Below, piece after piece: positions 4,703 through 28,622 of a DNA stretch of 64,000 nucleotides. The DNA comes from an uncultured Acidobacteriota bacterium (GTDB lineage: Bacteria > Acidobacteriota > Vicinamibacteria > Vicinamibacterales > UBA2999): the NCBI GenBank assembly GCA_963723495.1, contig CAVRQR010000006.1:498107-562106 (forward strand), given 5' to 3'. Both the position numbers and the translations under genes were made by a program. The notes under the pieces were generated by a model. The model did no database searches and was not told the origin of the DNA. It saw only the letters and a list, made by a program, of their open reading frames with translations. The first letter of the stretch is position 1, and each line of letters opens with the position of its first letter.

Positions 4703-7481
4703 ATGCCACGTATCCGCTTCACTTTGAACGGGAAAGAAACCACCGCCTCCTACGAACCGGGCATGCACCTGCTGGAGGTGCTGCGCGAGGAATGCGGCGT
4801 TGTCTCGGCCAAGAACGGGTGTGCCCCGGAAGGGGCGTGCGGCTGCTGCCTCGTCCTCATCGATGGGACGCCGGCCCTCTCGTGCCTGAGGAAACCCGAG
4901 CAGACCGAAGGCCGCGAGATTGTGACCCTCGAGGGTTTGCCCGAGGACGTGCGCAAGCGGATGAGCGACGCCTTCGTCCTCGAGGGAGGCGTGCAATGCG
5001 GCTTCTGCATCCCGGGGATCGTGGTGCGTGCCTCGACCCTGGTGGAGCAAGGAAAGGCGAACGATCGCGCGGCAATCGCCAAGGCGCTCGACGGGCACCT
5101 CTGCCGCTGCACCGGGTACGGGCGAATCATCGACGCGATTCAGACCGCCGGTGAGGCCTCGGCGTGCGGCGATCGGCTCACCCGCACCGAACCACGCAGG
5201 CACTCCTTCTTCGGCGAGGAGCTCGGCCTGACGCGAAACCCCGCCTTTGGCAACGGCAACGGAACCAGCAACGGCAAGGGCCAGGGTGTAGGTCACTCAA
5301 GTCTGCGGCTCAACGGCGCCGAACAGACGTTGGGTGACAAGCACTTCATCGACGACATGCGCGTCCCCGGGATGCTGCATGGCGCGATGGTCCTGACCGA
5401 GCATCCACGCGCGCGCATCCTGAAGATTCACGTCGACGAAGCGGCAGCAATGCCGGGCGTCGTTCGGGTTCTCACAGCCGCCGATGTCCCTGGCTTCCGC
5501 GGCCAAGGCTTGAACGATGCCGATCAGCCAATCTTCGTGGCGGAGGGCGAGCTAACCTGCTGCGTCGCCGACTTCCTGGCGATGGTGGTGGCGGATACGC
5601 AGTTTCACGCGCGGCAGGCCGCCGCCAAGGTCCGGATCGACTACGAGGTCCTCGAGCCGCTCACCGATGTATTCGAGGCGCTGAAAACCGGGGCACCGCT
5701 GGTGCACTCGGCGGAGACGTTCGCGCCGCGGACGTCGAATGTTCTGCAGCCAACGACGGCGTTCTCGCGCGGTGACGTGGACGCGGTACTGGCTACGGCG
5801 GCGCACGTCATCGAAACCACCTTCGAGACGCAGCCGATTGAGATTGCGTTCCTCGAGCCCGAGGCGTGCCTGGCGATGCCGAGCGGGAACGGGATTCGGG
5901 TCTATACCGACAGCCAGGGATCGGTCTACGACCACGCACAGCTCGCGAAGATCCTCAGCCTCGATCCGAAAGACGTCGAAGTCACACTGGTGGCGAGCGG
6001 CGGCGCGTTTGGCGCGAAAGAAGAACTGTCGATTCAGGGGCAGACGGCGATCGCCGCCCTGCTGCTCGGCCGCCCGGTGAAGACGGTGCTGACGCGGACG
6101 CAATCCACGCAGCATCACGTCAAGCGCCACGCGATGACGGTGAAACTCACGGTCGGCGCCGACGCAGGCGGGCATCTGCTCGCGCTGCGCTCGCGAATCG
6201 TGGCCGACGCAGGCGGCTATCACACGACGAGCGCCAAGTGCGCGTTACGCGCGGCGTGTCACTCGTGCGGCGTCTACCGCATCCCGAATGTCGATGTCGA
6301 AGCCAAGGCGGTCTACACGAACAACCCCAATGCCGGCGCGATGCGCGGTTTCGGCAGCAACCAGGCGCAGTTCGCGATGGAAGGCGTGATGGACATGCTG
6401 GCCGAGAAGGTCGGCGTGGACGGCTGGGACATCCGCGAACGCAACATCCTGAACCCCGGCGACAAGCTCGGGACCGGGCAGGTCATGCGCGACAGCGTGC
6501 GCGGCATTCGCGAGACGCTCAACGCCGTGAAGGACGTCTACAAGCGTTCGAAATACAAGGGCATCGGCTGCGGCATCAAGAGCACGGGCCTCGGCAACGG
6601 AACGACCGAGGGCGGACACATCAAGATCCGCGTGCTCGACGGCGGCCGCCTCGAGATCCTGAACGGCTACACGGAAATGGGCCAGGGGATCTACACGGCG
6701 ACGATGCAGGCGGTGTGCGAGGAGACTCACCTGCCCGCGGACATCATGACCGTCTCGTGGGACAAGGAGCTCGGCGAGAAGTGTGGCGAGACGTGGGCGT
6801 CTCGCGGGACGACGCTGAGTTGTGCAGCCGCGCAGCAGGCGGCGCGCAAGCTGGCCGCCGACCTCGACGCGATCCCGATCACCAAGGAACCGAGCACCGC
6901 CACGCCGGACCCTCGCCTCAAAGTGTCTCAGCTGCAGCTACTGGCGGGGCGCGAGTACCTCCGGCGAGTACGTCTGTAACTTCACGACCCGACCGGGTAC
7001 GCCCGAGGCGGTCCTGAACCCGACGACGCACCTGACCTTCAGTTACGCCGCGCAGGTCGTCATCCTCGATGACCAGGGCAAGCTTCAGCGGGTCGTCGTG
7101 GCCAACGACGTCGGCCGGGCGATCAACCCGCGCCTGTGCGCCGAGCAGATGGAAGGCGGCGTGCACATGGGGCTCGGTTACGCGCTGTCGGAGAACTTCA
7201 CGTCCACCGATGGCATCCCTGACTCTCTGGGACTGCGCGAGGTCGGCCTCGTGCCAGCGAAGCACATGCCTGACATCGACGTCATCCTGATCGAAGTGCC
7301 CGACGAAGTCGGCGGCTACGGCGCGAAAGGCGTTGGTGAGATCGGATGCGTGGCAACGGCCGGCGCCGTGGCCGGAGCGCTCCACTCGTACGACGGCATC
7401 AGACGCGTCAGCCTGCCCATGGACGATGCGCCGGCGGCGAAGCCGCTTCTCCCGAAGAAACGCAAGACCCGCCGGCTTTAG
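4703..7481 (+). CDS. Xanthine dehydrogenase-family Mo-hydroxylase with fused N-terminal 2x[2Fe-2S] domain (frameshift near 6959)
   Basis: GCAPEGACGCC, QCGFCIPG, HLCRCTGY, GGAFGAK and AMRGFG motifs; the C-terminal frame carries EQMEGG and GAKGVGE; the two ORFs join by removing one C after GTAC. Confidence 0.85.
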
Positions 7482-15715: not shown

Positions 15716-16363
15716 ATGAAGCGAGTCGCCGCCATCTTGTTCGTCGCAGCCATCCTGGCACCACCGATCGCAAGCGGCCAGGGGACGAGTGCCGTTCCTC
15801 TCGACAAGGCGACCGTCTCCAAGGACGTCGCGCAGCGGACGCTGATGAAGAACCAGATCAGCGCCTCCATCGCGCGCCAGATTGTGGATGCCTGCGTCGA
15901 CTTCGCCCGCAATCAGCAGGGCGGTCCGGGCAACTACGCGATCTTCGTGCTCGCACCGAACGGGGACATCGTCGACGCGCATGTCATGGACGGCGTGCTG
16001 CCAATTGGCGTCGAGACTGGTTTGCTGAAGGCGAAGACAGCCCTCTATGCGCGCACTCCCTCGAGCGCCGTCGCGCAGCGCTTTTCCGATGTCGATGGCC
16101 GCGTGATTCGACTCGATCTCGGCAAGGACTCCGGTCTGGCCTACTACTTCGTGGGCGGCGGACTTCCAATCGTCGTGGAGAACAACCTGATCGGCGCCAT
16201 CGGTGTCGGCGGCGGAAACATGGACGAGCAATGTGCTTATCAGGCACTGACCAAGGTGCTTGGGCCGCAACCGCCGCTCCCGACACCTGCGGGCCGCGGC
16301 GCACCGAGCGGTGCAGCACCAGCTGGCGGCGGTGCTGGCCAGGGTGGTCGCGGGGGCAAGTAG
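15716..16363 (+). CDS. Secreted GlcG/HbpS-family heme-binding protein
   Basis: Signal peptide; KAKTA and GGGLPI..IGAIGVGG motifs; Gly-rich tail. Confidence 0.75.
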   Translation: MKRVAAILFVAAILAPPIASGQGTSAVPLDKATVSKDVAQRTLMKNQISASIARQIVDACVDFARNQQGGPGNYAIFVLAPNGDIVDAHVMDGVLPIGVETGLLKAKTALYARTPSSAVAQRFSDVDGRVIRLDLGKDSGLAYYFVGGGLPIVVENNLIGAIGVGGGNMDEQCAYQALTKVLGPQPPLPTPAGRGAPSGAAPAGGGAGQGGRGGK

Positions 16364-16369
16364 CCATAG

Positions 16370-17224
16370 ATGGTCTATCTCGTCACTCAGACCCTGAACG
16401 GTCTCTTTTCTGCAGCATTGCTGTTTCTGATCGCCAGCGGGCTGACGCTGGCGTTCGGGGTGATGCGGATCGTCAACATCGCGCACGGGTCCTTCTACAT
16501 GCTCGGCGTCTACGTCGCGTACACCGTGACGGCGCGGACGTCGAGCCTGCTTGCCGGGACGCTGGTCGCGCTCCTCGTCGTTGCCGTCGTTGGCTTTCTC
16601 ATGCAGCGCCTCTTCCTTCGGCGCTTCGCGTCCCAGCCGCTGGCGCAGATGATGATGACGATGGGCTTCGCGCTCTTCTTTCGAGACGCCGCGTTGATGA
16701 TCTGGGGAGGCGACCCGTTCACGTTGACAACGCCGCGGTGGCTGACGGGCTCGATGGAAATCGGAGCGATCGTCTTCCCGTGGTATCGCCTGTTCGTCAT
16801 CGTCGTGGCAGCACTGGTCGGCGTCGGCCTGTGGATCGTCAATGACCGTACGTTGATCGGTGCGCGTGTCCGCGCAACGGTAGACGATCCCGAGATCGCC
16901 GCCGCAACCGGCATCAATGTCGCGCGACTCTCGGGCGCGGTCTTCGCCGCGGGCGCGGCGCTGGCGGCGTTTGGCGGCGTGATGGGCGGGCCGATCCTGG
17001 GCGGCTATCCAGGAATGGATTTCGAGCTGCTGCCGCTCGCCTTCGTCGTCGTGATCATCGGCGGCATGGGAAGCTTGAAAGGCGCGCTGATCGGCGCGAT
17101 CGTCGTCGGCATGATCGACAACTTCGGCAAGGCACTCGTGCCGGAGCTCTCCTACTTCACGCTCTTCGCGCCGATGGTGCTGATGCTCGCCCTCAAGCCA
17201 ACGGGATTGTATGGCCGAGCGTAG
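16370..17224 (+). CDS. livH: Branched-chain amino acid-type ABC permease
   Basis: GLTLAFGVMRIVNIAHG and VVIIGGMGS motifs. Confidence 0.9.
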   Translation: MVYLVTQTLNGLFSAALLFLIASGLTLAFGVMRIVNIAHGSFYMLGVYVAYTVTARTSSLLAGTLVALLVVAVVGFLMQRLFLRRFASQPLAQMMMTMGFALFFRDAALMIWGGDPFTLTTPRWLTGSMEIGAIVFPWYRLFVIVVAALVGVGLWIVNDRTLIGARVRATVDDPEIAAATGINVARLSGAVFAAGAALAAFGGVMGGPILGGYPGMDFELLPLAFVVVIIGGMGSLKGALIGAIVVGMIDNFGKALVPELSYFTLFAPMVLMLALKPTGLYGRA

Positions 17225-18158
17225 AGCCCAGGCACTCGACTGGAGGCTCCCTCTCGCCGGGCTGTTCGCTGTATTCCTCCTGTTCGCTCCCCCGTTCTTG
17301 TCTGCCTACTGGGTGGGACTTCTGACGCAGGCCGTGATTCTCGGCATCCTCGCCATGAGCCTGGACCTGCTGATCGGCTACACAGGCCTTCCCTCCCTGG
17401 GTCATGCGGGATTTTTCGGCGTCGCGGCGTACGGAGTCGGCATCCTGTCGACGACCTATCAGGCCGGCGTCGTCACGTCGATTGCCGGCGGATTCGTCGC
17501 CGGCACGGGCCTCGCCGCGCTGTTCGGGCTCATCGTCTCGCACGTGCGCGATGTGTACTTTCTGATGATCACCATGGCGCTCGGCATGGTGCTGTGGGGT
17601 CTGAGCTTTCGCTGGATTCCAGTGACCGGTGGCGACAACGGCATCTCCGGCATCCCTCGCCTCGAGGCGCTGATTGGTCTGCCGACGACAGGCCCTATTC
17701 CCTTCTACTACGTTGCGCTGGTCGTGTTCGCCGCGTGCATCGTGCTGTTGATGGTGCTCGTGAAGTCACCGTTCGGCCTCACGCTTCAGGGGATCCGCGA
17801 ACACGAGCCCCGGATGAGAAGCCTGGGATTCAACACGTGGCTGCACGGCTATCTGAGCTACGTCTGCGCCGGCGCGTTCGCGAGCGTTGCCGGCATCATG
17901 TGGGCCTACTACAACGGCTTCGTCAGCCCGACGTATCTGGACCTGACCGCCTCGTCGGAGCTCTTTCTGATGGTTACGCTTGGCGGGCCCGCGACGCTCG
18001 TCGGCCCGGTGATCGGGGCGGGCGCGATCGTGATCCTGAAGAACGTGATGAGTGCGTATACCGCCAGGTGGCTCCTCATCCTCGGCATCGTCTACATCGT
18101 CACGATCCTGTGGGCGCCGCAGGGATTGTGGAATCTGGGGAAACGCAGGTCCGGCTAA
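17211..18158 (+). CDS. livM: Branched-chain amino acid-type ABC permease
   Basis: GYTGLPSLGHAGFFG and TGGDNG motifs. Confidence 0.9.
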   Translation: MAERRAQALDWRLPLAGLFAVFLLFAPPFLSAYWVGLLTQAVILGILAMSLDLLIGYTGLPSLGHAGFFGVAAYGVGILSTTYQAGVVTSIAGGFVAGTGLAALFGLIVSHVRDVYFLMITMALGMVLWGLSFRWIPVTGGDNGISGIPRLEALIGLPTTGPIPFYYVALVVFAACIVLLMVLVKSPFGLTLQGIREHEPRMRSLGFNTWLHGYLSYVCAGAFASVAGIMWAYYNGFVSPTYLDLTASSELFLMVTLGGPATLVGPVIGAGAIVILKNVMSAYTARWLLILGIVYIVTILWAPQGLWNLGKRRSG

Positions 18159-20915: not shown

Positions 20916-20933
20916 GAACTCGTTCTTCGTTCC
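20901..20933. terminator. Hairpin between convergent genes (candidate bidirectional terminator)
   Basis: GGAACGAAGAAC-N9-GTTCTTCGTTCC perfect 12-bp stem made of AAGAAC units. Confidence 0.5.
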
Positions 20934-22075
20934 TATTTCTTGACAGGCGCCGCGGGGCGCGCGAACCGCGCCGCGTCGATCGTCACGTTCGGCTGCACAT
21001 CGCTCAATTCGACAACGTCACGACCGTCCAGCCAGGTGTCGGTCCACTTGAACGGCATCTTCACACCGGCGACTTCCCGGTAATCGGAGTAATCGGTCTG
21101 CCTCGAGATCCGGCCAACGGGTGAGTCGTTGTAGCGGACATGACGCACGAGAAGGCCGGTCTCTGAATCGAAGTACAACGTAGCCGTCCCACCGCGCGCC
21201 GTCGTGCCCTGAACGACCTGCACTTCGCGGTCATCGATTACCGTCGCCAGGCCAACACGCCAGTTGGTGAGCGCCTGCTTGATGGCCGCCGGGTGTGCCA
21301 GATCGGCCTCGAGCTTCAAGCCATCAACTTCCTGCGGGCTCAGCGCGAGCACATCGACCGGCCTGAAGGGCGCCGCAATCCACGCCGAGCGGCCGTCGTA
21401 GGTCGTCGTGCTGTCGCCCGCCGTCGTGCGCACGATGGTCGTGCGCTGACCCTCGCGAGAGTAGATTTCGAGAGGCCGCGGCTCGTTCTCCGGCCCATAG
21501 CCCGCGCTGGTGCCCTTGGCGACATAGCTCTTCAACGCTGCGACGCGCTGCGCTCCGCCGATGGCCTGGATGTACTTATCGAGGACCTCGTCTGCCTTCG
21601 GTGCGTTGACGGCCTGCTCGATGACGGCGTTGGGATCGCCGAACGGTGGCGTGCCGTACAGCTCGGCCAGATCGGCCGTCGCGCGCGGGCGCGCGCTGCC
21701 ACGATGGCAGGTGTAGCAGGTCACGACCTGACGCCCCCGGAAATGCGTCTTGTTGATGGTGGCCATCATCGTCACCATCACGCGGGCCATCTGCTTGCGA
21801 GGGCTGTCCGCGGCGTACACCGACCAGTCGGCATCGCCGGCAGCGTGACAGTCTTCACACGACATGCCGAGGGCGGCAGAAAAGATGCCCATCGTGCCCA
21901 TGAACTCGTTCACGGGAATGCCCTTGAGCACCTGCACGTTCTTGAAGACCTGCTCGGCCATAGGTGGCGCGGCCGGAGCGGCTCCGCCCTGACCGCTGGT
22001 GACCACGACGGTCGATAGCCAGACTACGGCAGCTGCCAGAACGCCCACGATGGATCGCCTCGACCTGTTCGTCAT
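20933..22075 (-). CDS. Secreted di-heme c-type cytochrome (reaction-centre cytochrome c-like N-domain) fused to a beta-rich C-domain
   Basis: Signal peptide; FKNVQVL; CEDCH and CYTCH heme motifs; Met-rich helices. Confidence 0.75.
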   Translation of the reverse strand: MTNRSRRSIVGVLAAAVVWLSTVVVTSGQGGAAPAAPPMAEQVFKNVQVLKGIPVNEFMGTMGIFSAALGMSCEDCHAAGDADWSVYAADSPRKQMARVMVTMMATINKTHFRGRQVVTCYTCHRGSARPRATADLAELYGTPPFGDPNAVIEQAVNAPKADEVLDKYIQAIGGAQRVAALKSYVAKGTSAGYGPENEPRPLEIYSREGQRTTIVRTTAGDSTTTYDGRSAWIAAPFRPVDVLALSPQEVDGLKLEADLAHPAAIKQALTNWRVGLATVIDDREVQVVQGTTARGGTATLYFDSETGLLVRHVRYNDSPVGRISRQTDYSDYREVAGVKMPFKWTDTWLDGRDVVELSDVQPNVTIDAARFARPAAPVKK

Positions 22076-22340
22076 AGCGCACCCTGCACCTTCGCATACT
22101 CGGACGTCGGACCCACGAATATCGGGCCTTTCAAACCCTGCCGACTATACCGATCCCCATCGCCCCCGGCAATGCGCGCCTTCCCCGCCTCCCTCACGAT
22201 CGAATTGACAGACCGTCTCGCCAGTGAGAGATTCTCGGGGTTCACCGTTCCCATATGGCGGCGAGCTCGGCGGGGTTGCGCACGATCGCAGCCGAGGTTC
22301 GCAGGGCGCAGGGTTTGGCGGGGTGAAGTCTGGAGGCGTG

Positions 22341-23954
22341 ATGTCGGTCGAGTTGCGTGCAGTCACGGGCGTGCTCGTAGTGATCGCGGGTGTGGCTATG
22401 GCAGCTGGGGGGCAGGCACCACCGTCTGGCGCCCTCACCGCCGCTCAGCTGAAACAGGTCGCTTACTTGAAGGCCTCAAACGCCGAACCAGACGACCATT
22501 TCGGGTGCGGTGGTGTGCTCGACGGCCACGCGGGCTGGGGTGTCGCGATCAGTGGTGACGGCAACACAATCGCCGTCGGCGCGCCGCACGAGAGCAGCGG
22601 CGCCAAGGGCGTCAACGGCGACCAGAAGGACAACTCGATATATGGGTCCGGTGCCGTGTACATCTTCACGCGCAGCGGTTCCGGGTGGACTCAACAGGCA
22701 TACGTGAAGCCGTCGAATCCACAGATGGGCGCCGAGTTCGGTCACGCCCTCGCGCTCAGCGCTGACGGCAACACGCTGGCGGTCTCGGCCTTCAGCGAGG
22801 CGAGCAAGGCGACGGGCGTCAACGGCAATCAGGACGATCACTCCATCCCGCAGGCCGGAGCCGCGTACGTCTTCACGCGCACCGGGACGAGGTGGACGCA
22901 GCAGGCGTACGTCAAGGCGTCGAACACGGGTGAAGCTGGCGCGACGCCGGACAGCTTCGGGGATGGCGATCAATTCGCCGTATCGATTGCGCTCAGCGGT
23001 GACGGCCGAACGCTGGCAGTGGGAGCGATCACCGAGGACAGCAACGCATCCGGTATCAACGGCAACCAGGCCGACAACTCGGCGATGTCGTCAGGGGCCG
23101 TGTACGTGTTCATGGTTTCGGGTACCACCTGGTCTCAGCAGGCGTATATCAAGGCTGGCAACCCGGACCCCGGTGACCTTTTCGGCTACAGCGTCTCGCT
23201 CAGCGCCGACGGCAACACACTCGCCGCTGGCAGCTTTGACGAAGGGGGCTCCTCGCGCGGCATCAACGGTCCGCCAGACAACATGCGACGCGGTTCAGGG
23301 GCTGTTTATGTCTTCACGCGCGCCGGCACGACGTGGACGCAGCAAGCCTATATTCACGCCGCCAATGCAGAGGCCGGCGACTCCCTCGGCGTCAACGTCG
23401 TGCTGAGCGACGATGGGAACACGCTGCTGGCAAGCTCGCTCGATGAAGATTGCATGGCGACCGGCGTCAATCCACCAGGGTGCGATAACGATCGGACAGA
23501 AGACGTTTCCACGGGCGCTGCGTACGTGTTCGTGCGCAACGGCGCCGCCTGGTCGCAGCAGGCGTACCTCAAAGCCTCCAACACTGGCCCCAACGACTGG
23601 TTCGGCTCGCGCGCGGCGTTGAGTGGCGACGGTAATACCGCCGCGCTTGGCGCATCACTCGAGGACAGCTCCGGCAAAGGCATCAACGGGAAGCAGGACG
23701 ACGACGCGGCGCCGGAGTCGGGTGCGGTGTATCTGTTCAGACGCACCGGGACGACGTGGAGTCAGCAGGCGTACGTAAAGAGCTCGAACGCCGAGGCCTA
23801 CGACGAATTCGGGGGATCTGTTGCGTTGTCGCGCGACGGCCGCACGATGGTGGCGTCCGCGCACACCGAAGACGGCGGCTCGAAGGGCGTTGGTGGAAAT
23901 GAGGCTGACAACTCCGTCAGCGAGTCCGGCGCGGTCTACGTCTTCAGTAACTAG
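22341..23954 (+). CDS. Secreted FG-GAP/integrin-alpha-like beta-propeller protein
   Basis: About 7 repeats of FG..ALS.DG.TLAVGA ... SGAVYVF.R.G..W.QQAY.K; RBS GGAGG. Confidence 0.85.
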   Translation: MSVELRAVTGVLVVIAGVAMAAGGQAPPSGALTAAQLKQVAYLKASNAEPDDHFGCGGVLDGHAGWGVAISGDGNTIAVGAPHESSGAKGVNGDQKDNSIYGSGAVYIFTRSGSGWTQQAYVKPSNPQMGAEFGHALALSADGNTLAVSAFSEASKATGVNGNQDDHSIPQAGAAYVFTRTGTRWTQQAYVKASNTGEAGATPDSFGDGDQFAVSIALSGDGRTLAVGAITEDSNASGINGNQADNSAMSSGAVYVFMVSGTTWSQQAYIKAGNPDPGDLFGYSVSLSADGNTLAAGSFDEGGSSRGINGPPDNMRRGSGAVYVFTRAGTTWTQQAYIHAANAEAGDSLGVNVVLSDDGNTLLASSLDEDCMATGVNPPGCDNDRTEDVSTGAAYVFVRNGAAWSQQAYLKASNTGPNDWFGSRAALSGDGNTAALGASLEDSSGKGINGKQDDDAAPESGAVYLFRRTGTTWSQQAYVKSSNAEAYDEFGGSVALSRDGRTMVASAHTEDGGSKGVGGNEADNSVSESGAVYVFSN

Positions 23955-23955
23955 T

Positions 23956-24023
23956 CAACTCCCAACGACTTTCGTTCGACCAACTCCCAACTCCCAAGGG
24001 CAACCTTGGCGATTGGGAGTTGG
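23956..24023. repeat. Heptamer (AACTCCC) hairpin repeat between convergent genes
   Basis: CAACTCCCAAC..CAACTCCCAACTCCCAA ... TTGGGAGTTGG. Confidence 0.7.
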
Positions 24024-24033
24024 CCTTCGTCCT

Positions 24034-24399
24034 TCAGGGTTCGCGCAACAACGGCACGCCCTGCACGGGCGCTGGCCGCGCCTGCACGAAGGCGTAGATA
24101 TCCGCCATCTCGGCATCGGACACAACCTTGCTCGTGTACGGCGGCATCTGACCAGTGGGACGCCGCACGTATTGGCTGAACGCCGTAAACGCGATCGGCT
24201 TCGGCCCGAGGCGTGGCCCGGTCGCGCTCGATCCCTGTGCCTCTCGGCCGTGGCACTGATAACAACCGTAGCTGACGTAGAGCTTCTGGCCGTCTTCTGC
24301 GTTGCCCGCCGGCGCGGCTTGCGTTGAAGGAGCTTGCGCCCGTACACCAGCGATGGATGCCAGAGCCACGATACCGAGCACGAGGAATTGAATTCGCAT
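24034..24399 (-). CDS. Periplasmic monoheme class I cytochrome c
   Basis: Signal peptide MRIQFLVLG..AQA; CYQCH heme motif; distal GQMP. Confidence 0.85.
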   Translation of the reverse strand: MRIQFLVLGIVALASIAGVRAQAPSTQAAPAGNAEDGQKLYVSYGCYQCHGREAQGSSATGPRLGPKPIAFTAFSQYVRRPTGQMPPYTSKVVSDAEMADIYAFVQARPAPVQGVPLLREP

Positions 24400-24451
24400 C
24401 AGCCTCACCCTTCGAGACATCGGAGGTTGCGGAGTCACGGATTGTTCCTCC

Positions 24452-26399
24452 CTATCGGGGTTGCGTCACTACATCAATCAGCGACGGCTCACCACGCTTG
24501 ACGACCTCCAGTGCTCGCGTGATGGCCGGCGCCAGATCCTTCGGGTTCGTGATCGGTCCCTGCGCATGGACCCCCATGCCCTGTGCGATCTTCGCGAAAT
24601 CGACGTTCGGATCCTCGATCGTCGTCCCGATATGTGCGCGCGAGATGCCGCGATTGTGCCGGTTGGCCATGCGCTGCAGGTGCATGACCTCCTGATGGTA
24701 CGCGCGGTTGTTGTGCATCACGGCGAGCAGTGGAATCCGGTGGTGCGCCGCTGTCCACCAGACGCCGGGCGCATAGAGGAAGTCACCGTCGCCCTGAATC
24801 GTGACTGAGAGCCGACCGTGCTTCTTGTTGGCGAGTGCGGCGCCTACCGCCGCCGGGGCACCGTAGCCCACGCCGGCGCCACCCGAGCCGCCAAGCGACT
24901 GGTAGTGCTTCTCGAAGCTCCATAGCTGCGACGTCCAGTCGCTCATGATGCCGCTCTCGGCCACGAGCGCCCAGTCCTCCTTCTTGATCTGGGCCCAGAG
25001 CTCCATGGTCATGCGGGCGGTGCTAATCGGACTCGCGTCCCACGCATACGCCGCCTCGGCGCGCGCGCGCTCGAGCGCGCGCCCGTGTGCCTCCGCCAGG
25101 CGCTTGCCCCTCGCCTCGAACGCCGTACGCCTGTCGGCGGTGATCAATCGCTTGCAGGCTTCGGTCAACGCGGGAAGCGTGGCTTCGGCATCGGCGGCCA
25201 TCGCGACGTCCACCTCGGGGTAGCGCTGGAAGTCCTGGTAGTTTCCTTTTGTTGCCAGATCGAGCGCCGTGATGCTGACGAGTTTCGTGCCCGGCTTCAC
25301 CAGCGACCGCGATGTGCGCGTCAGGCCATCGCGCACGGCACTGACCGTCCCCCAGAAGTCGGTCAGCTCGAGGCCGAGAATCGACATCCGCCTCGGCGAC
25401 GAGCTGGCGTGCCGCGCTGCTCTGGTTCAGTGGGTGGCGCGAGGGAAAGTTCATCCGGCCGCCTTGATCGACGACCGGCGCTTGCAACGTTTCGGCGAGC
25501 TCGATCAGGCGCTGCACGCCGGCCGGCGTACGGGCCGCACGGTCGGCCACGATCAGCGGGTTCTGCGCGTTGACGAGCAGGCGCGCGGCTTCAGCGACAG
25601 CGCCGGAATCGCCCTGCGGTGGCGTGGCCCGTGTGAGTCTCGGGATGCGAAGACGCGACGTGATCTCCGCCGAGATCGGATCCTCCTGCAGCCCTCCATC
25701 GACGACGAGAAGCACCGGCATCATCGGCGGCGTCATCGCGATCTTGTAGGCGCGTACGGCCGACTCGGCGAAGTGCGGCAGCGAGACCGGCTGATCATCC
25801 CACTTGATGTAGTCGCGAACCATCGCCGCCGCGTCCTGAACGCTGTGCGACCACTCGACGCCGGGGCGCCGCAGCGTGGCGTCGAGTGAGTTGCCGGCCA
25901 GGATGTACACCGGCACGCGATCGCAGTAGGCGTTGTAGATGGCCATCGCCGCATGCTGCAGGCCCACGGTGCCATGGCACAGCACCGCCATCGGCTTCCC
26001 CTCGGCCTTGAAGTAGCCGTGCGCCATCGCGATAGACGATTCTTCGTGACAGCACGTGATGAACTCGGGAGACGAGTTGTTGCCGTAGTTGACGATCGAT
26101 TCATGAATCCCACGGAAGCTCGAACCGGGATTCGATGCGACGTACTCGAAGTCGAGCGTCTTGATCACGTCGACCATGAAATCGCCGCCCGGCCGATCGG
26201 TCGTGATGATTTCGCCACCGTCCGGCGGGTCGGTTTCCCGCGGCGCGATGGGCGCGGTGGCCTGAGCGGCCGCGGCAGCCTGTCGCGGTTGCCCTGCAAC
26301 GAAGTGTCCGGCTTCAGCCGGACCTGAAACGCCGCTGCCCGGAACCAGCGCGGCACCGGTGACCGCAGCGCTCTTGAGAAAGTCACGACGGTTCGTCAT
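24452..26399 (-). CDS. Tat-signal ThDP-dependent enzyme (acetolactate synthase/benzoylformate decarboxylase superfamily), frameshift near 25383
   Basis: MTNRRDFLK signal; NPGSS; catalytic Glu in CHEE; ThDP motif GDGDF...NN; ATG overlaps the DoxX stop. Confidence 0.85.
26301..26324 (+). repeat. REP palindrome inside coding sequence
   Basis: GAAGTGTCCGGCTTCAGCCGGACC, near-identical to 18202-18225 and 27215-27238. Confidence 0.75.
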
Positions 26400-27174
26400 C
26401 GCTTTCGCCCTCGCCATGCATCGACACTCCAGGCGCCAGGTCCTGCCGCCCAGAAGAACAGAAACAGGAAACAGAACAGGATCGACGCTTCCATGCCCGC
26501 TTGTTCGAAGCTGCGCCAGAAACCACGAGGAGCCCACGACCTGAAGTACGCCACCGCCATTTCACCGGAAAGCACGAACGCCACCGGCCGGGTAAACAGC
26601 CCGAGCCCGAAGAGCGACCCACCAACGATCTCGAGGTACCCGGCGAGACCGCGCAGGGTCATGATGTCGCGATCGATGCGGCCGCCTCCGACGCCAAAGA
26701 TCTTCTCCAGCCCATGCATCAGGAACAGCCCGGCGGCGGCGATCCTCAGAATGCCCAACAAGATCGGCGTCCACCGCTTGTCGATCGCGACCGAGCCGCG
26801 CAGCCGGTCGATACTCAATGGGCCGCCGCCGGCCGCGGACAGGTAGAGAAAGAAGAATGCGTTCAGAAGAATCGGATCGCCGCCGTTCCGGTGCGTGAAC
26901 GGACCCCGCTGAAGCGGGCCGAGGAAGAACAGCACGAAGTACAGCACCGCCAGCACGAGGCTGACCTGCCTGGTGTAGAGCCCGAGAATCAGCAGCAGCC
27001 CGGCCGGAAGCGCCAGGGCCTCGAGGATTCCTTCGTACGACACCCGCGACGCATGGCTCGCCTCGGGATAGGCGAGCACCTGCTCCATCCCGTGACGCAG
27101 CACGAGGAAGCCGAAGACGATTCGCGCAAAGCTCTGGAGATACGGCGCCAGTTGTCCCACGGCGAGTCGTTCAT
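26396..27174 (-). CDS. Tandem two-domain DoxX-family membrane protein (probable frameshift near 27149)
   Basis: Two repeats of RI..G.L...HG.(Q/E)K and LGL(Y/F)TR; ATG 27174 has RBS GGAAGG and joins the frame by adding one G. Confidence 0.75.
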
Positions 27175-27214
27175 AACCTTCCTGTTTCCCCCGCGTCAAC
27201 ACCGAATTGTGGCC

Positions 27215-27238
27215 GTAGGGTCCGGCTTCAGCCGGACC
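27215..27238 (+). repeat. REP palindrome
   Basis: GTAGGGTCCGGCTTCAGCCGGACC in a divergent intergenic region. Confidence 0.75.
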
Positions 27239-27317
27239 GTTAACCATTGAGCATTGGGCGCGAGACGACTAACATCTGCGTCGCCGGAGCTGGTCGATTC
27301 ACCGGAGGAGGGACTGT

Positions 27318-28622
27318 ATGGCTGGACGTTTCGCCATGTTCGTCGTCGGATTCGTCGTTGCGGTCGCTGTCATCTACCTGCCTGATAACCGGACTGTTCT
27401 TGGTCAGTCAGCCAGTGCTCCGACAAGGTTCGCCGCAGTCCCGAGCGAGAAAGGCGGTCAGGACATCTTCGGCGCCTATGACGTCGCCGCCGACTGGCCC
27501 AAGGATCTCGCCACGATCAAGGGCCACGAAGGGTGGACGTTCGGCGCGGGGCAAAGCGTGTTCGCCGAGAGCCCGAATCGCGTCTTCGTGCTCCAGCGCG
27601 GGGAACTGCCCGCCCTGGGACGCCCGAAGCCAACCAACCTCCCGCAGCTCGGACCGAACCTCTCGTTCCCGATCGGCCGCCTGCCCTGGCGAGACGCCAC
27701 CGCCGCAAGCCCGCCCGGAAACGGTGGCACCGGGCAGCCAGCCGAGGGTGGCATGGAGGCATGGGAGAAGGGCAACGGCGGGAGAAAGTTCGGCGTCGAC
27801 GCGCGCTGGGAACACACCATCATGGTCTTCGACGGCCAGGGCAACCTGGTCGACTCGTGGAACCAGTGGGACTCGATGATGCAGCGGCCGCATTTCATCG
27901 CCATCAGTCCCTATGACCCGCAGAAGCACGTGTGGATCGTCGACGACCACAAGCACGTCGTCCACAAGTTCACCAACGACGGCAAGACCAAGGTGCTGAC
28001 GATTGGTACCTACGGCGTGCCCGGCGACGACTCGACGCATTTCAACCGGCCAACCTTCATGGACTGGTTCCCTGACGGCAGCTTCGTCGTCGCCGACGGC
28101 TACAACGGCACGCGCGTCGTGAAGTTCGACAAGGACGGCAAGTATCTGACGGCGTGGGGGCAGCGGGGCGAAGCCGGCAAGGAGACGCGGCCCGGTTACT
28201 TCAACAACGTTCATGGCGTTGCGGTCGACCCGAAGACACGACGGGTGTTCGTCAACGATCGCGGCAACAAGCGCGCGCAGGTCTTCGACGAGAACGGCAA
28301 GTTCCTTCACGAGTGGTCGTTCGGACGCGACCCGGCCGACATTCACCTGTTCCACATCTTCAGCGATGGCTACCTGTGGGCGGCGGACCGCGGAACCAGC
28401 CGCATCCTCAAGTACGACCTCGATGGGAACTTCATGTACTCGTGGGGCACGTGGGGTGACTTCCCCGGCGGCATGTGGGGCGTGCACGGGATGAGCGTCG
28501 ACCAGGATGGCAACTTCTACGTCGCCGAAGTCGACAACGGCGGCGCGCAGAAGTACACGCCGCGCAAGGGCGCCAACCCCGCGATGCTGGTTGGCAAGCC
28601 CATTCGGTCGGCGTGGAAGTGA
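27318..28622 (+). CDS. Secreted NHL-repeat beta-propeller (PAL/peptidyl-hydroxyglycine lyase-like)
   Basis: Signal peptide; FNRPT, VADGYNGTRVVKFD, FNNVHGVAVD and DRGN motifs. Confidence 0.8.
   Translation: MAGRFAMFVVGFVVAVAVIYLPDNRTVLGQSASAPTRFAAVPSEKGGQDIFGAYDVAADWPKDLATIKGHEGWTFGAGQSVFAESPNRVFVLQRGELPALGRPKPTNLPQLGPNLSFPIGRLPWRDATAASPPGNGGTGQPAEGGMEAWEKGNGGRKFGVDARWEHTIMVFDGQGNLVDSWNQWDSMMQRPHFIAISPYDPQKHVWIVDDHKHVVHKFTNDGKTKVLTIGTYGVPGDDSTHFNRPTFMDWFPDGSFVVADGYNGTRVVKFDKDGKYLTAWGQRGEAGKETRPGYFNNVHGVAVDPKTRRVFVNDRGNKRAQVFDENGKFLHEWSFGRDPADIHLFHIFSDGYLWAADRGTSRILKYDLDGNFMYSWGTWGDFPGGMWGVHGMSVDQDGNFYVAEVDNGGAQKYTPRKGANPAMLVGKPIRSAWK

What the first reader, a model, noticed from the sequence alone, without database searches (positions are those of the whole stretch)
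24034..27174. Putative periplasmic ThDP-enzyme / cytochrome c / DoxX redox module
Seen: a tightly linked minus-strand operon of tandem DoxX, a ThDP enzyme with a clear twin-arginine signal (MTNRRDFLK, start overlapping the DoxX stop) and a secreted monoheme cytochrome c. Known: ALS/POX/BFD-family ThDP enzymes are normally cytoplasmic, and DoxX/DoxD proteins are linked to quinone redox chemistry. Inference: extracytoplasmic oxidative decarboxylation of a 2-oxo acid or aldehyde, with electrons passed to cytochrome c or quinone. I know of no characterised system like this.
Basis: partly seen in the sequence, partly recalled or inferred. Interest (0 to 1): 0.7.

Follow-up and report, generated by a model that had tools for sequence, protein, structure and literature searches.

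The report
Exported thiamine enzyme with cytochrome partner
A vitamin-B1 (thiamine diphosphate) enzyme of a normally cytoplasmic superfamily carries a conserved export signal for folded proteins and is almost always followed by its own small cytochrome c, which points to an uncharacterised periplasmic oxidising enzyme; the DoxX membrane protein beside it is a local addition.

Summary
All three genes are present on the minus strand: tandem DoxX (26396-27247), a Tat-signal ThDP enzyme (start 26399, ATGA overlap with the DoxX stop) and a monohaem cytochrome c (24034-24438). Near-identical contigs from 4 of 4 public runs lack that base, and other genes of this assembly are split too, so an assembly error is likely.

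In 80 related loci from Acidobacteriota and Proteobacteria, 77 of 78 ThDP N-termini that are present carry RRxF. 77 of 82 ThDP genes have an adjacent homologous CxxCH cytochrome. DoxX accompanies only the two closest relatives.

The enzyme is about 20% identical to benzoylformate decarboxylase, glyoxylate carboligase and benzaldehyde lyase, and it passes no curated family cut-off. Five literature searches found no described periplasmic ThDP enzyme.

Best reading, confidence 0.55: a periplasmic ThDP-dependent oxidoreductase for a 2-oxo acid or aldehyde that reduces its own cytochrome c. The substrate is unknown. The quinone link through DoxX is unsupported beyond this lineage.

Earlier notes of this scan report the same module on other DNA.

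The parts
26396..27247 (-). Tandem DoxX membrane protein (283 aa by the longest ORF; the true start may lie further in).
   Evidence: Pfam DoxX 50.5 bits against cut-off 23.6; DoxD 18.1 bits, below its cut-off of 22.7. The two halves are 29% identical, E 6e-6. Homologues lie next to the ThDP gene only in L008 and L009.
24452..26399 (-). ThDP-dependent enzyme gene of the BFDC/ALS superfamily. The intact form is about 645-648 aa. In this assembly it is split into two frames.
   Evidence: TPP_enzyme_N, TPP_enzyme_M and TPP_enzyme_C are found. The two parts are 96% and 98% identical to the intact P0001 (648 aa). The nearest solved structures are BFDC-like, 4q9d at E 5e-32. An AF2 model of P0001 has pLDDT 84.5.
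26292..26399 (-). Twin-arginine (Tat) signal peptide: MTNRRDFLKSAAVTGAALVPGSGVSGPAEA. The cleavage site is inferred.
   Evidence: Pfam TAT_signal E 2e-5. RRxF is present in 77 of 78 homologous N-termini. ATGA overlap with the DoxX stop.
25383..25384 (-). Single extra base that shifts the ThDP reading frame, between ...AEADV and ILGLE...
   Evidence: Shown by the DNA alignment to L008 and L009 and the protein alignment. Contigs from 4 of 4 public runs, from 3 studies, leave out one base at 25383.
24034..24438 (-). Secreted monohaem class I cytochrome c (134 aa precursor) with CYQCH, the MPPY Met ligand region and a conserved C-terminal (I/V)PLL.
   Evidence: Pfam Cytochrome_CBB3 E 2e-10 and Cytochrom_C E 6e-8. 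In the 61-sequence alignment A4, C59, C62, H63, M98, P99 and L131 are invariant.
24446..24451 (-). GGAGGA Shine-Dalgarno sequence, 7 nt before the cytochrome c GTG start.
   Evidence: Read directly.

Best explanation
DoxX, the ThDP enzyme and cytochrome c form one minus-strand transcription unit. Its conserved core is the two-gene cassette of ThDP enzyme plus cytochrome c.

Proposed steps:
1. The ThDP enzyme folds and binds ThDP/Mg2+ in the cytoplasm. It is exported folded through the Tat pathway (inferred).
2. The cytochrome c is exported by Sec and receives haem in the periplasm (inferred from established knowledge of c-type cytochromes).
3. In the periplasm the enzyme adds ThDP to a 2-oxo acid, with decarboxylation, or to an aldehyde. 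This forms the usual carbanion/enamine intermediate.
4. Instead of being protonated as in benzoylformate decarboxylase, the intermediate is oxidised in two one-electron steps by the dedicated cytochrome c.
5. The resulting acyl-ThDP is hydrolysed to a carboxylic acid. The reduced cytochrome feeds the respiratory chain.

Shown here: gene anatomy, conservation of the Tat motif and of the cytochrome partner, ThDP-binding residues, and presence of Tat and cytochrome maturation genes in the genome.
Inferred: export, redox coupling, absence of flavin, and the class of substrate.

The frame break in this copy is most likely an assembly error.
For: - The three ThDP domains and a Tat signal are present.
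- In the 74-sequence alignment A3, H118, H142, the GDG...NN ThDP/Mg motif (D537, G538, D539, N563, N564) and many others are invariant, and E119 is nearly invariant (at least 90%).
- E119 aligns with the cofactor-activating E47 of BFDC, and H142 with BFDC H70 (counted on the printed alignment).
- RRxF occurs in 77 of 78 N-termini that are present. The exception, L040, is frame-broken.
- 77 of 82 ThDP genes in 80 loci from Acidobacteriota and Alpha-, Beta-, Gamma- and Deltaproteobacteria have a homologous CxxCH cytochrome next to them: 75 downstream, L065 downstream, L026 upstream. Gaps run from -28 to +220 nt, mostly under 45 nt.
- No other neighbour is conserved. The largest other cluster is TctC, in 10 of 80 loci.
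- In L084 two of the three tandem pairs were tested. The first pair's nearest ThDP and nearest cytochrome both come from the same foreign locus (L039). The third pair's nearest relatives are both Vicinamibacterales loci. The cytochrome therefore travels with its enzyme.
- A second Tat-ThDP plus cytochrome pair exists in the same genome.
- A 30%-identical paralogue without a Tat signal has no cytochrome beside it.
- TatC and Cytochrom_C_asm genes are present in the genome.
Against: - No experiment and no characterised homologue exist. Identity to any solved ThDP enzyme is about 20%.
- No flavin or Fe-S site was identified, so electrons would have to pass from ThDP to haem directly or through side chains. 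I know of no precedent for that (my own knowledge).
- BFDC H281 is not conserved.
- Two loci with room downstream (L080, L087) have no cytochrome within 900 nt.
- The gene is frame-broken in this window.
- The family was found in only 5 of 200 other genomes sampled from the phylum at E <= 1e-120, so it is an accessory function.
Confidence: 0.55

Rival explanations
1. The exported ThDP enzyme is a non-oxidative decarboxylase, lyase or carboligase, like BFDC, benzaldehyde lyase or glyoxylate carboligase. The cytochrome c then serves another periplasmic dehydrogenase or has a structural role.
For: The closest structures are all non-redox, flavin-free or flavin-vestigial enzymes: BFDC, BAL, GCL and HACL. 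The BFDC H70 equivalent is invariant. PQQ dehydrogenases lie near the pair in 5 loci and directly upstream in L043 and L051. I recall that enzymes of this class often use cytochromes c.
Against: The cytochrome follows the ThDP gene in 77 of 82 cases, whereas a PQQ dehydrogenase is present in only 5 of 80 loci. Tight or overlapping junctions suggest co-translation in fixed proportion. The cytochrome co-segregates with its own enzyme among paralogues.
Confidence: 0.17
2. DoxX is a functional third subunit that anchors the module to the membrane and passes electrons on to quinone, or takes them from quinol.
For: The DoxX stop overlaps the ThDP start. The arrangement is kept in L008, L009 and P0004. 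DoxD, a DoxX relative, is part of a quinone-reducing enzyme in Acidianus (my own knowledge).
Against: A DoxX homologue is absent from 78 of the 80 related loci at phmmer E <= 1e-5. The DoxD model scores below its cut-off, 18.1 against 22.7. DoxX has no known redox cofactor (my own knowledge).
Confidence: 0.1
3. In this particular strain the ThDP gene is a real pseudogene. The frameshift is biological and the module is dead here.
For: The window sequence carries the extra base. The second module in the same genome is also split.
Against: Both halves remain 96-98% identical in protein to intact relatives. Contigs from 4 of 4 runs (3 studies), 97-99% identical to the window across the site, lack the base. 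An unrelated permease gene in L088 is also split, and completeness is only 81.8% for a genome in 18 contigs. This pattern fits indel errors.
Confidence: 0.1
4. The enzyme stays in the cytoplasm. The RR motif is not a working signal, and the enzyme is an ordinary acetolactate-synthase-like enzyme, as automatic annotations name it.
For: Source databases call relatives 'acetolactate synthase large subunit'.
Against: The RRxF motif with a following hydrophobic stretch is conserved in 77 of 78 N-termini. About 60 residues before the catalytic core are predicted to be disordered. The partner is a secreted cytochrome. No ALS model reaches its cut-off; for example TIGR00118 scores 117 bits against a cut-off of 538.
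Confidence: 0.03

Closest known systems
Benzoylformate decarboxylase and BFDC-like enzymes (PDB 4q9d, 1bfd, 6qsi), benzaldehyde lyase, glyoxylate carboligase
   Same: Same three-domain ThDP fold: Foldseek probability 1.00 and target-normalised TM-score about 0.8. The cofactor-activating Glu, the BFDC His70 equivalent and the GDG...NN motif are conserved.
   Different: About 20% identity. Below every curated cut-off, for example PRK07092 at 165 bits against 493. BFDC His281 is not conserved. It has a Tat signal plus a linker of about 60 residues. It has a dedicated cytochrome c partner. As far as I know, the known enzymes are cytoplasmic and non-redox.
ThDP-dependent oxidative decarboxylases: pyruvate oxidase/PoxB (FAD, quinone) and pyruvate:ferredoxin oxidoreductase (Fe-S)
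   Same: The proposed chemistry is the same: oxidation of the ThDP-bound enamine to acyl-ThDP, with electrons leaving to an external acceptor (my own knowledge).
   Different: The location is periplasmic instead of cytoplasmic. The acceptor is a c-type cytochrome. No flavin or Fe-S motif was recognised. The pyruvate oxidase model PRK08611 scores 91 bits against a cut-off of 742.
Periplasmic dehydrogenases with a dedicated adjacent cytochrome c: NicA2-CycN, PQQ alcohol dehydrogenase with cytochrome c550, flavocytochrome c (FccAB, PchCF)
   Same: A cofactor-loaded enzyme exported to the periplasm and encoded beside the small cytochrome c that re-oxidises it. The analogy is from my own knowledge. 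Only the listing and abstract start of one NicA2 preprint were seen.
   Different: The catalytic cofactor is ThDP, not flavin or PQQ. There is no sequence relationship.
DoxDA thiosulfate:quinone oxidoreductase and the DoxX family
   Same: The upstream gene is a DoxX-family membrane protein, here duplicated in tandem.
   Different: The DoxD model scores below its cut-off. No link to sulfur chemistry was found. The association with the ThDP module is limited to the closest relatives.

Membership tests
ThDP-dependent enzymes, decarboxylase (POX/ALS/BFDC) superfamily | Three domains: TPP_enzyme_N (Pyr), TPP_enzyme_M and TPP_enzyme_C (PP) | tested here: met
   PF02776 at 64.5 bits, PF00205 at 42 bits and PF02775 at 91.1 bits, all above their cut-offs. 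The fold was confirmed on a model of P0001.
ThDP-dependent enzymes, decarboxylase (POX/ALS/BFDC) superfamily | Cofactor-activating glutamate and the GDG-X(24-27)-NN diphosphate/Mg2+ motif | tested here: met
   E119 aligns with BFDC E47. D537, G538, D539, N563 and N564 are invariant in 74 sequences.
Benzoylformate decarboxylase (EC 4.1.1.7) | Curated equivalog score (NCBIfam PRK07092) | tested here: not met
   165.4 bits against a cut-off of 493.
Benzoylformate decarboxylase (EC 4.1.1.7) | Catalytic His70 and His281 (the roles of these residues are recalled, not taken from a call) | tested here: not met
   The His70 equivalent, H142, is invariant. The His281 position aligns to a variable RDxxxR stretch.
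Acetolactate synthase / pyruvate oxidase (FAD-binding ThDP enzymes) | Curated family scores | tested here: not met
   TIGR00118 scores 117 bits against 538. PRK08611 scores 91 bits against 742.
Acetolactate synthase / pyruvate oxidase (FAD-binding ThDP enzymes) | FAD bound by the middle domain | not testable with these tools
   The sequence after the first strand of the middle domain reads IVADRAART, which resembles the BFDC LGPDVDAA. I recall a glycine-rich loop at this place in FAD binders. No cofactor modelling was possible.
Tat (twin-arginine) substrates | S/T-R-R-x-F-L-K motif followed by a hydrophobic stretch at the N-terminus | tested here: met
   The N-terminus reads TNRRDFLK. PF10518 scores 24.7 bits against 22.7. 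The motif is conserved in 77 of 78 homologous N-termini.
Tat (twin-arginine) substrates | Tat translocase in the same genome, and actual export | tested here: inconclusive
   TatC is found at 198 bits, over its cut-off. Export itself cannot be tested here.
Class I monohaem c-type cytochromes | A single CxxCH motif, a distal Met ligand, an export signal, and a maturation system in the genome | tested here: met
   PF13442 at 41.3 bits and PF00034 at 34.4 bits, both over their cut-offs. C59, C62, H63 and M98 are invariant. A hydrophobic N-terminus is seen in the sequence. Cytochrom_C_asm gives 3 matches over its cut-off.
DoxX family | Pfam DoxX domain | tested here: met
   50.5 bits against 23.6 for the second half. 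The first half is homologous to the second.
DoxDA thiosulfate:quinone oxidoreductase | DoxD domain over its cut-off, and a DoxA partner | tested here: not met
   DoxD scores 18.1 bits against a cut-off of 22.7. DoxA was not searched for.

The most novel reading that the evidence does not exclude
These proteins are the first ThDP enzymes that work outside the cytoplasm. They pass electrons from the ThDP-bound enamine straight to a c-type haem, with no flavin or iron-sulfur cluster. This would be a new respiratory entry point, a new EC 1.2.2 activity, for small carbonyl compounds formed in the periplasm of soil bacteria. Candidate substrates are 2-keto-aldonates made by the PQQ sugar dehydrogenases encoded directly upstream in L043 and L051, or glyoxylate released by the PAL-like NHL protein encoded beside the module in this window.
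Probability: 0.35. Interest if true: 0.85.

Novelty: new variant of a known kind. Interest (0 to 1): 0.7.

Why it matters
As far as I know, and as far as five literature searches show, ThDP enzymes are treated as cytoplasmic.

A Tat-exported ThDP enzyme with its own cytochrome c would add a new cofactor class to periplasmic respiration. It would also pose a clear chemical question: how the ThDP enamine is oxidised by haem without a flavin or Fe-S relay.

It would also correct a name given to many proteins. 7978 of the 8000 scored 90%-identity clusters match a family member at E <= 1e-100. All named relatives come from MAGs or metagenomes, and many are labelled 'acetolactate synthase'.

The family is testable, because intact homologues such as P0001 and the L008 gene are available for expression.

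Tried and rejected
There is therefore no evidence on binding either way.
- Search for a natural ThDP-cytochrome fusion. P0123 (767 aa) turned out to carry an internal duplication, not a cytochrome domain. P0004 (682 aa) is a frame-broken DoxX-ThDP read-through.
- Search for a third conserved gene. An earlier scan note mentions a chaperone-like helper in another subfamily. Clustering the ORFs of the 80 loci gave none. Clusters 2, 4 and 9 are alternative-frame or antisense ORFs over the ThDP and cytochrome genes.
- Promoter and terminator scan of 23700-27600: 0 sites of either kind. This is uninformative for this phylum.
- Cultured hosts. Neither protein search named an isolate. All names were MAG or metagenome entries.
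Nothing can be said about expression.
- I first recalled that BFDC His281 sits in the FPTRHP motif. The printed alignment shows it does not, so I withdrew the claim that His281 is conserved.
- The correlation of ThDP and cytochrome pairwise identities (Spearman 0.68 over 1770 comparisons of 60 pairs) is confounded by shared descent. I use it only through the L084 paralogue comparison.
Full report
**Observation**

ORF listing and Pfam show three co-directional minus-strand genes.

- DoxX, 26396-27247, 283 aa. Pfam DoxX scores 50.5 bits. The two halves are 29% identical (E 6e-6), so it is a true tandem.
- ThDP enzyme. Its ATG at 26399-26397 overlaps the DoxX TGA in an ATGA. The N-terminus MTNRRDFLK hits Pfam TAT_signal, and all three ThDP domains are found.
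- Cytochrome c, 24034-24438, 134 aa, with CYQCH. A GGAGGA site lies 7 nt before its GTG.

Residues 1-338 and the last 311 residues lie in different frames. Alignment to intact relatives of 643-649 aa places the break between ...AEADV and ILGLE.... DNA alignment to L008 and L009 shows a single extra base.

**Is the frameshift real?**

- Logan contigs of four public runs from three studies cover the site with few mismatches: 6 in 588 nt, 2 in 81 nt, 5 in 563 nt and 24 in 730 nt. All four leave out one base at 25383.
- These runs need not be the source sample, so they show only that near-identical populations carry an intact gene.
- In the same assembly the paralogous module is also split, and so is an unrelated permease gene beside it.
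- The genome is in 18 contigs but only 81.8% complete by marker genes.
- Both halves are 96-98% identical to intact proteins.
- I read this as an indel error in the assembly. A very recent true frameshift is not excluded (confidence 0.1).

**Conservation**

A genome-collection scan with the intact homologue P0001 found 650 relatives. The best 80 loci were kept. All are MAGs, from these groups:

- Vicinamibacterales, Terriglobia and Bryobacteraceae;
- Burkholderiales and other Betaproteobacteria;
- Xanthobacteraceae, Beijerinckiaceae, Stellaceae and other Alphaproteobacteria;
- Steroidobacteraceae;
- one Deltaproteobacterium.

Tat motif: of 78 ThDP N-termini present in these loci, 77 carry RRxF followed by a hydrophobic stretch. 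The exception, L040, is frame-broken. Four loci lack the 5' end or a detectable N part.

Cytochrome adjacency: of 82 ThDP genes (L084 has three), 77 have a homologue of the window's cytochrome with CxxCH next to them.

- 75 lie downstream.
- L065 is also downstream.
- L026 is upstream.
- Three genes end within 250 nt of a contig end (L010, L078, L086).
- Two frame-broken genes (L080, L087) have no CxxCH frame within 900 nt downstream.

Junctions run from -28 to +220 nt, mostly under 45 nt.

In the cytochrome alignment of 61 sequences, CxxCH, the MP of the Met-ligand loop and a Leu in the C-terminal IPLL motif are invariant.

DoxX homologues appear beside the pair only in L008 and L009 and in the frame-broken protein P0004.

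No other neighbour is general. The most frequent are:

| Neighbour | Loci (of 80) |
|---|---|
| TctC | 10 |
| Amidohydrolase_2 | 7 |
| PQQ dehydrogenase (directly upstream on the same strand in L043 and L051) | 5 |
| Molybdenum hydroxylases | 4 and 3 |
| GMC oxidoreductase | 3 |

Further points on distribution:

- Two of the three tandem pairs of L084 were tested. The first pair's closest ThDP and closest cytochrome come from the same foreign locus (L039). The third pair's closest relatives are both Vicinamibacterales loci. The two genes therefore move as a unit.
- The window's genome has a second such pair: L088 4080-5997, with RRDFF, plus a cytochrome at 5994-6431 with CYACH.
- The same genome has a 30%-identical paralogue with neither a Tat signal nor a cytochrome.
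- TatC and three Cytochrom_C_asm genes are present.
- In a sample of 200 other genomes of the phylum, 5 have a match at E <= 1e-120. The module is patchy and accessory.
- It is very common in soil metagenomes. 7978 of the 8000 scored 90% clusters match a proteobacterial member at E <= 1e-100.

**What the enzyme is**

- No NCBIfam model reaches its cut-off. The best is PRK08327, 'thiamine pyrophosphate-requiring protein', at 259 bits against 456. BFDC scores 165 against 493, and the ALS, POX, GCL and Xsc models score far lower.
- The nearest solved sequences are BFDC-like: 4q9d at E 5e-32, or 1e-37 with the family profile.
- An AF2 model of P0001 has pLDDT 84.5 and pTM 0.84. Residues 1-63 are disordered.
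- The model matches BFDC-like enzymes, glyoxylate carboligase, benzaldehyde lyase, HKA synthase, AHAS and 2-hydroxyacyl-CoA lyase about equally, at roughly 20% identity.
- From the printed profile alignment, E119 corresponds to BFDC E47 and the invariant H142 to BFDC H70. BFDC H281 falls in a variable stretch.
- The start of the middle domain reads IVADRAART, like the BFDC LGPDVDAA. It does not resemble the glycine-rich loop that I recall from FAD-binding members. Absence of flavin is an inference, not a result.

**Mechanism proposed**

- The Tat pathway exports folded, cofactor-loaded proteins (established knowledge). That explains why a ThDP enzyme would need it.
- A private, translationally coupled cytochrome c is most simply read as the electron acceptor.
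- The ThDP enamine formed from a 2-oxo acid or an aldehyde can be oxidised by one-electron acceptors. This is established for ThDP decarboxylases with artificial acceptors (my own knowledge).
- I therefore propose a periplasmic 2-oxo acid or aldehyde:cytochrome c oxidoreductase, with confidence 0.55.
- The substrate is open. The only hints are weak and local: soluble PQQ dehydrogenases of the glucose/quinate/shikimate type directly upstream in L043 and L051, and the PAL-like NHL protein in this window.

**Rivals**

- A non-oxidative periplasmic ThDP enzyme (0.17).
- DoxX as a real third subunit in this lineage (0.10).
- A real pseudogene in this strain (0.10).
- A cytoplasmic ALS-like enzyme (0.03).

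**Comparison and novelty**

The enzyme belongs to the ThDP decarboxylase superfamily but to none of its curated families. The module works like periplasmic dehydrogenase plus cytochrome c pairs such as NicA2-CycN, PQQ-ADH with cytochrome c550, and flavocytochromes c, but with ThDP as the cofactor.

Five full-text searches and one passage check (PMC6050957, irrelevant) found no description of such a system. For the other papers I saw only listings and abstract starts. Subscription journals are not covered.

Earlier notes of this scan describe the same kind of module in other genomes. They agree with this reading but are unchecked AI notes and do not count as independent evidence.

This window adds four things:

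- a frame break, resolved as a probable assembly error;
- a tandem DoxX specific to this lineage;
- a second module in the same genome;
- links to a PQQ dehydrogenase and to a PAL-like protein in some loci.

**Not done**

Whether the two proteins dock, and how far the haem lies from ThDP, remains open.

Noticed in passing
L088 4080-6431 (own genome, G000:C6:194579-196930): A second Tat-ThDP enzyme (RRDFF, 50-53% identical to P0001), followed with a stop/start overlap by its own cytochrome c (CYACH). This ThDP gene is also split into two frames.
   Followed up: partly
L088 6584-9197 (-): A large permease-like membrane protein (not run against any family library) is split into two overlapping ORFs. 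Together with the two split ThDP genes and 81.8% completeness in 18 contigs, this suggests an assembly rich in indel errors.
   Followed up: partly
window 27318-28622 (+): A secreted NHL-repeat beta-propeller, divergent from the DoxX gene. It resembles the peptidyl-alpha-hydroxyglycine alpha-amidating lyase core (PDB 3fvz, E 4e-21). I recall that this enzyme releases glyoxylate. Homologues lie within 6 kb of the ThDP gene in L008, L009, L012, L025 and L076.
   Followed up: partly
window 20933-22075 (-): A 380-aa exported protein. It has an N-terminal c-type cytochrome domain of the non-photosynthetic reaction-centre type (NF033196, 70.3 bits at cut-off 70) and a C-terminal part weakly similar to DUF6544. 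It is conserved beside the FG-GAP protein in L008 and L009.
   Followed up: no
window 22224-23954 (+): A 576-aa FG-GAP repeat protein, convergent with the cytochrome c gene. It is also present near the module in L008, L009 and L076.
   Followed up: no
L084 3130-10633: Three ThDP-cytochrome c pairs back to back in one alphaproteobacterial MAG. The first pair's nearest relatives are in L039 and the third pair's are in Vicinamibacterales loci, not among the other pairs of the same locus; the second pair was not tested.
   Followed up: partly
L043 3173-5269 and L051 3641-5839: A soluble PQQ dehydrogenase of the glucose/quinate/shikimate type (TIGR03074, 348-364 bits, below its cut-off) lies directly upstream of the ThDP gene on the same strand. 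In L051 the gap is 12 nt.
   Followed up: partly
L047 7912-8805: In this locus the partner cytochrome c ORF runs on for about 190 further residues (297 aa) of unknown nature.
   Followed up: no
window 16001-18000: The AT skew of -0.232 is much stronger here than anywhere else in the window.
   Followed up: no
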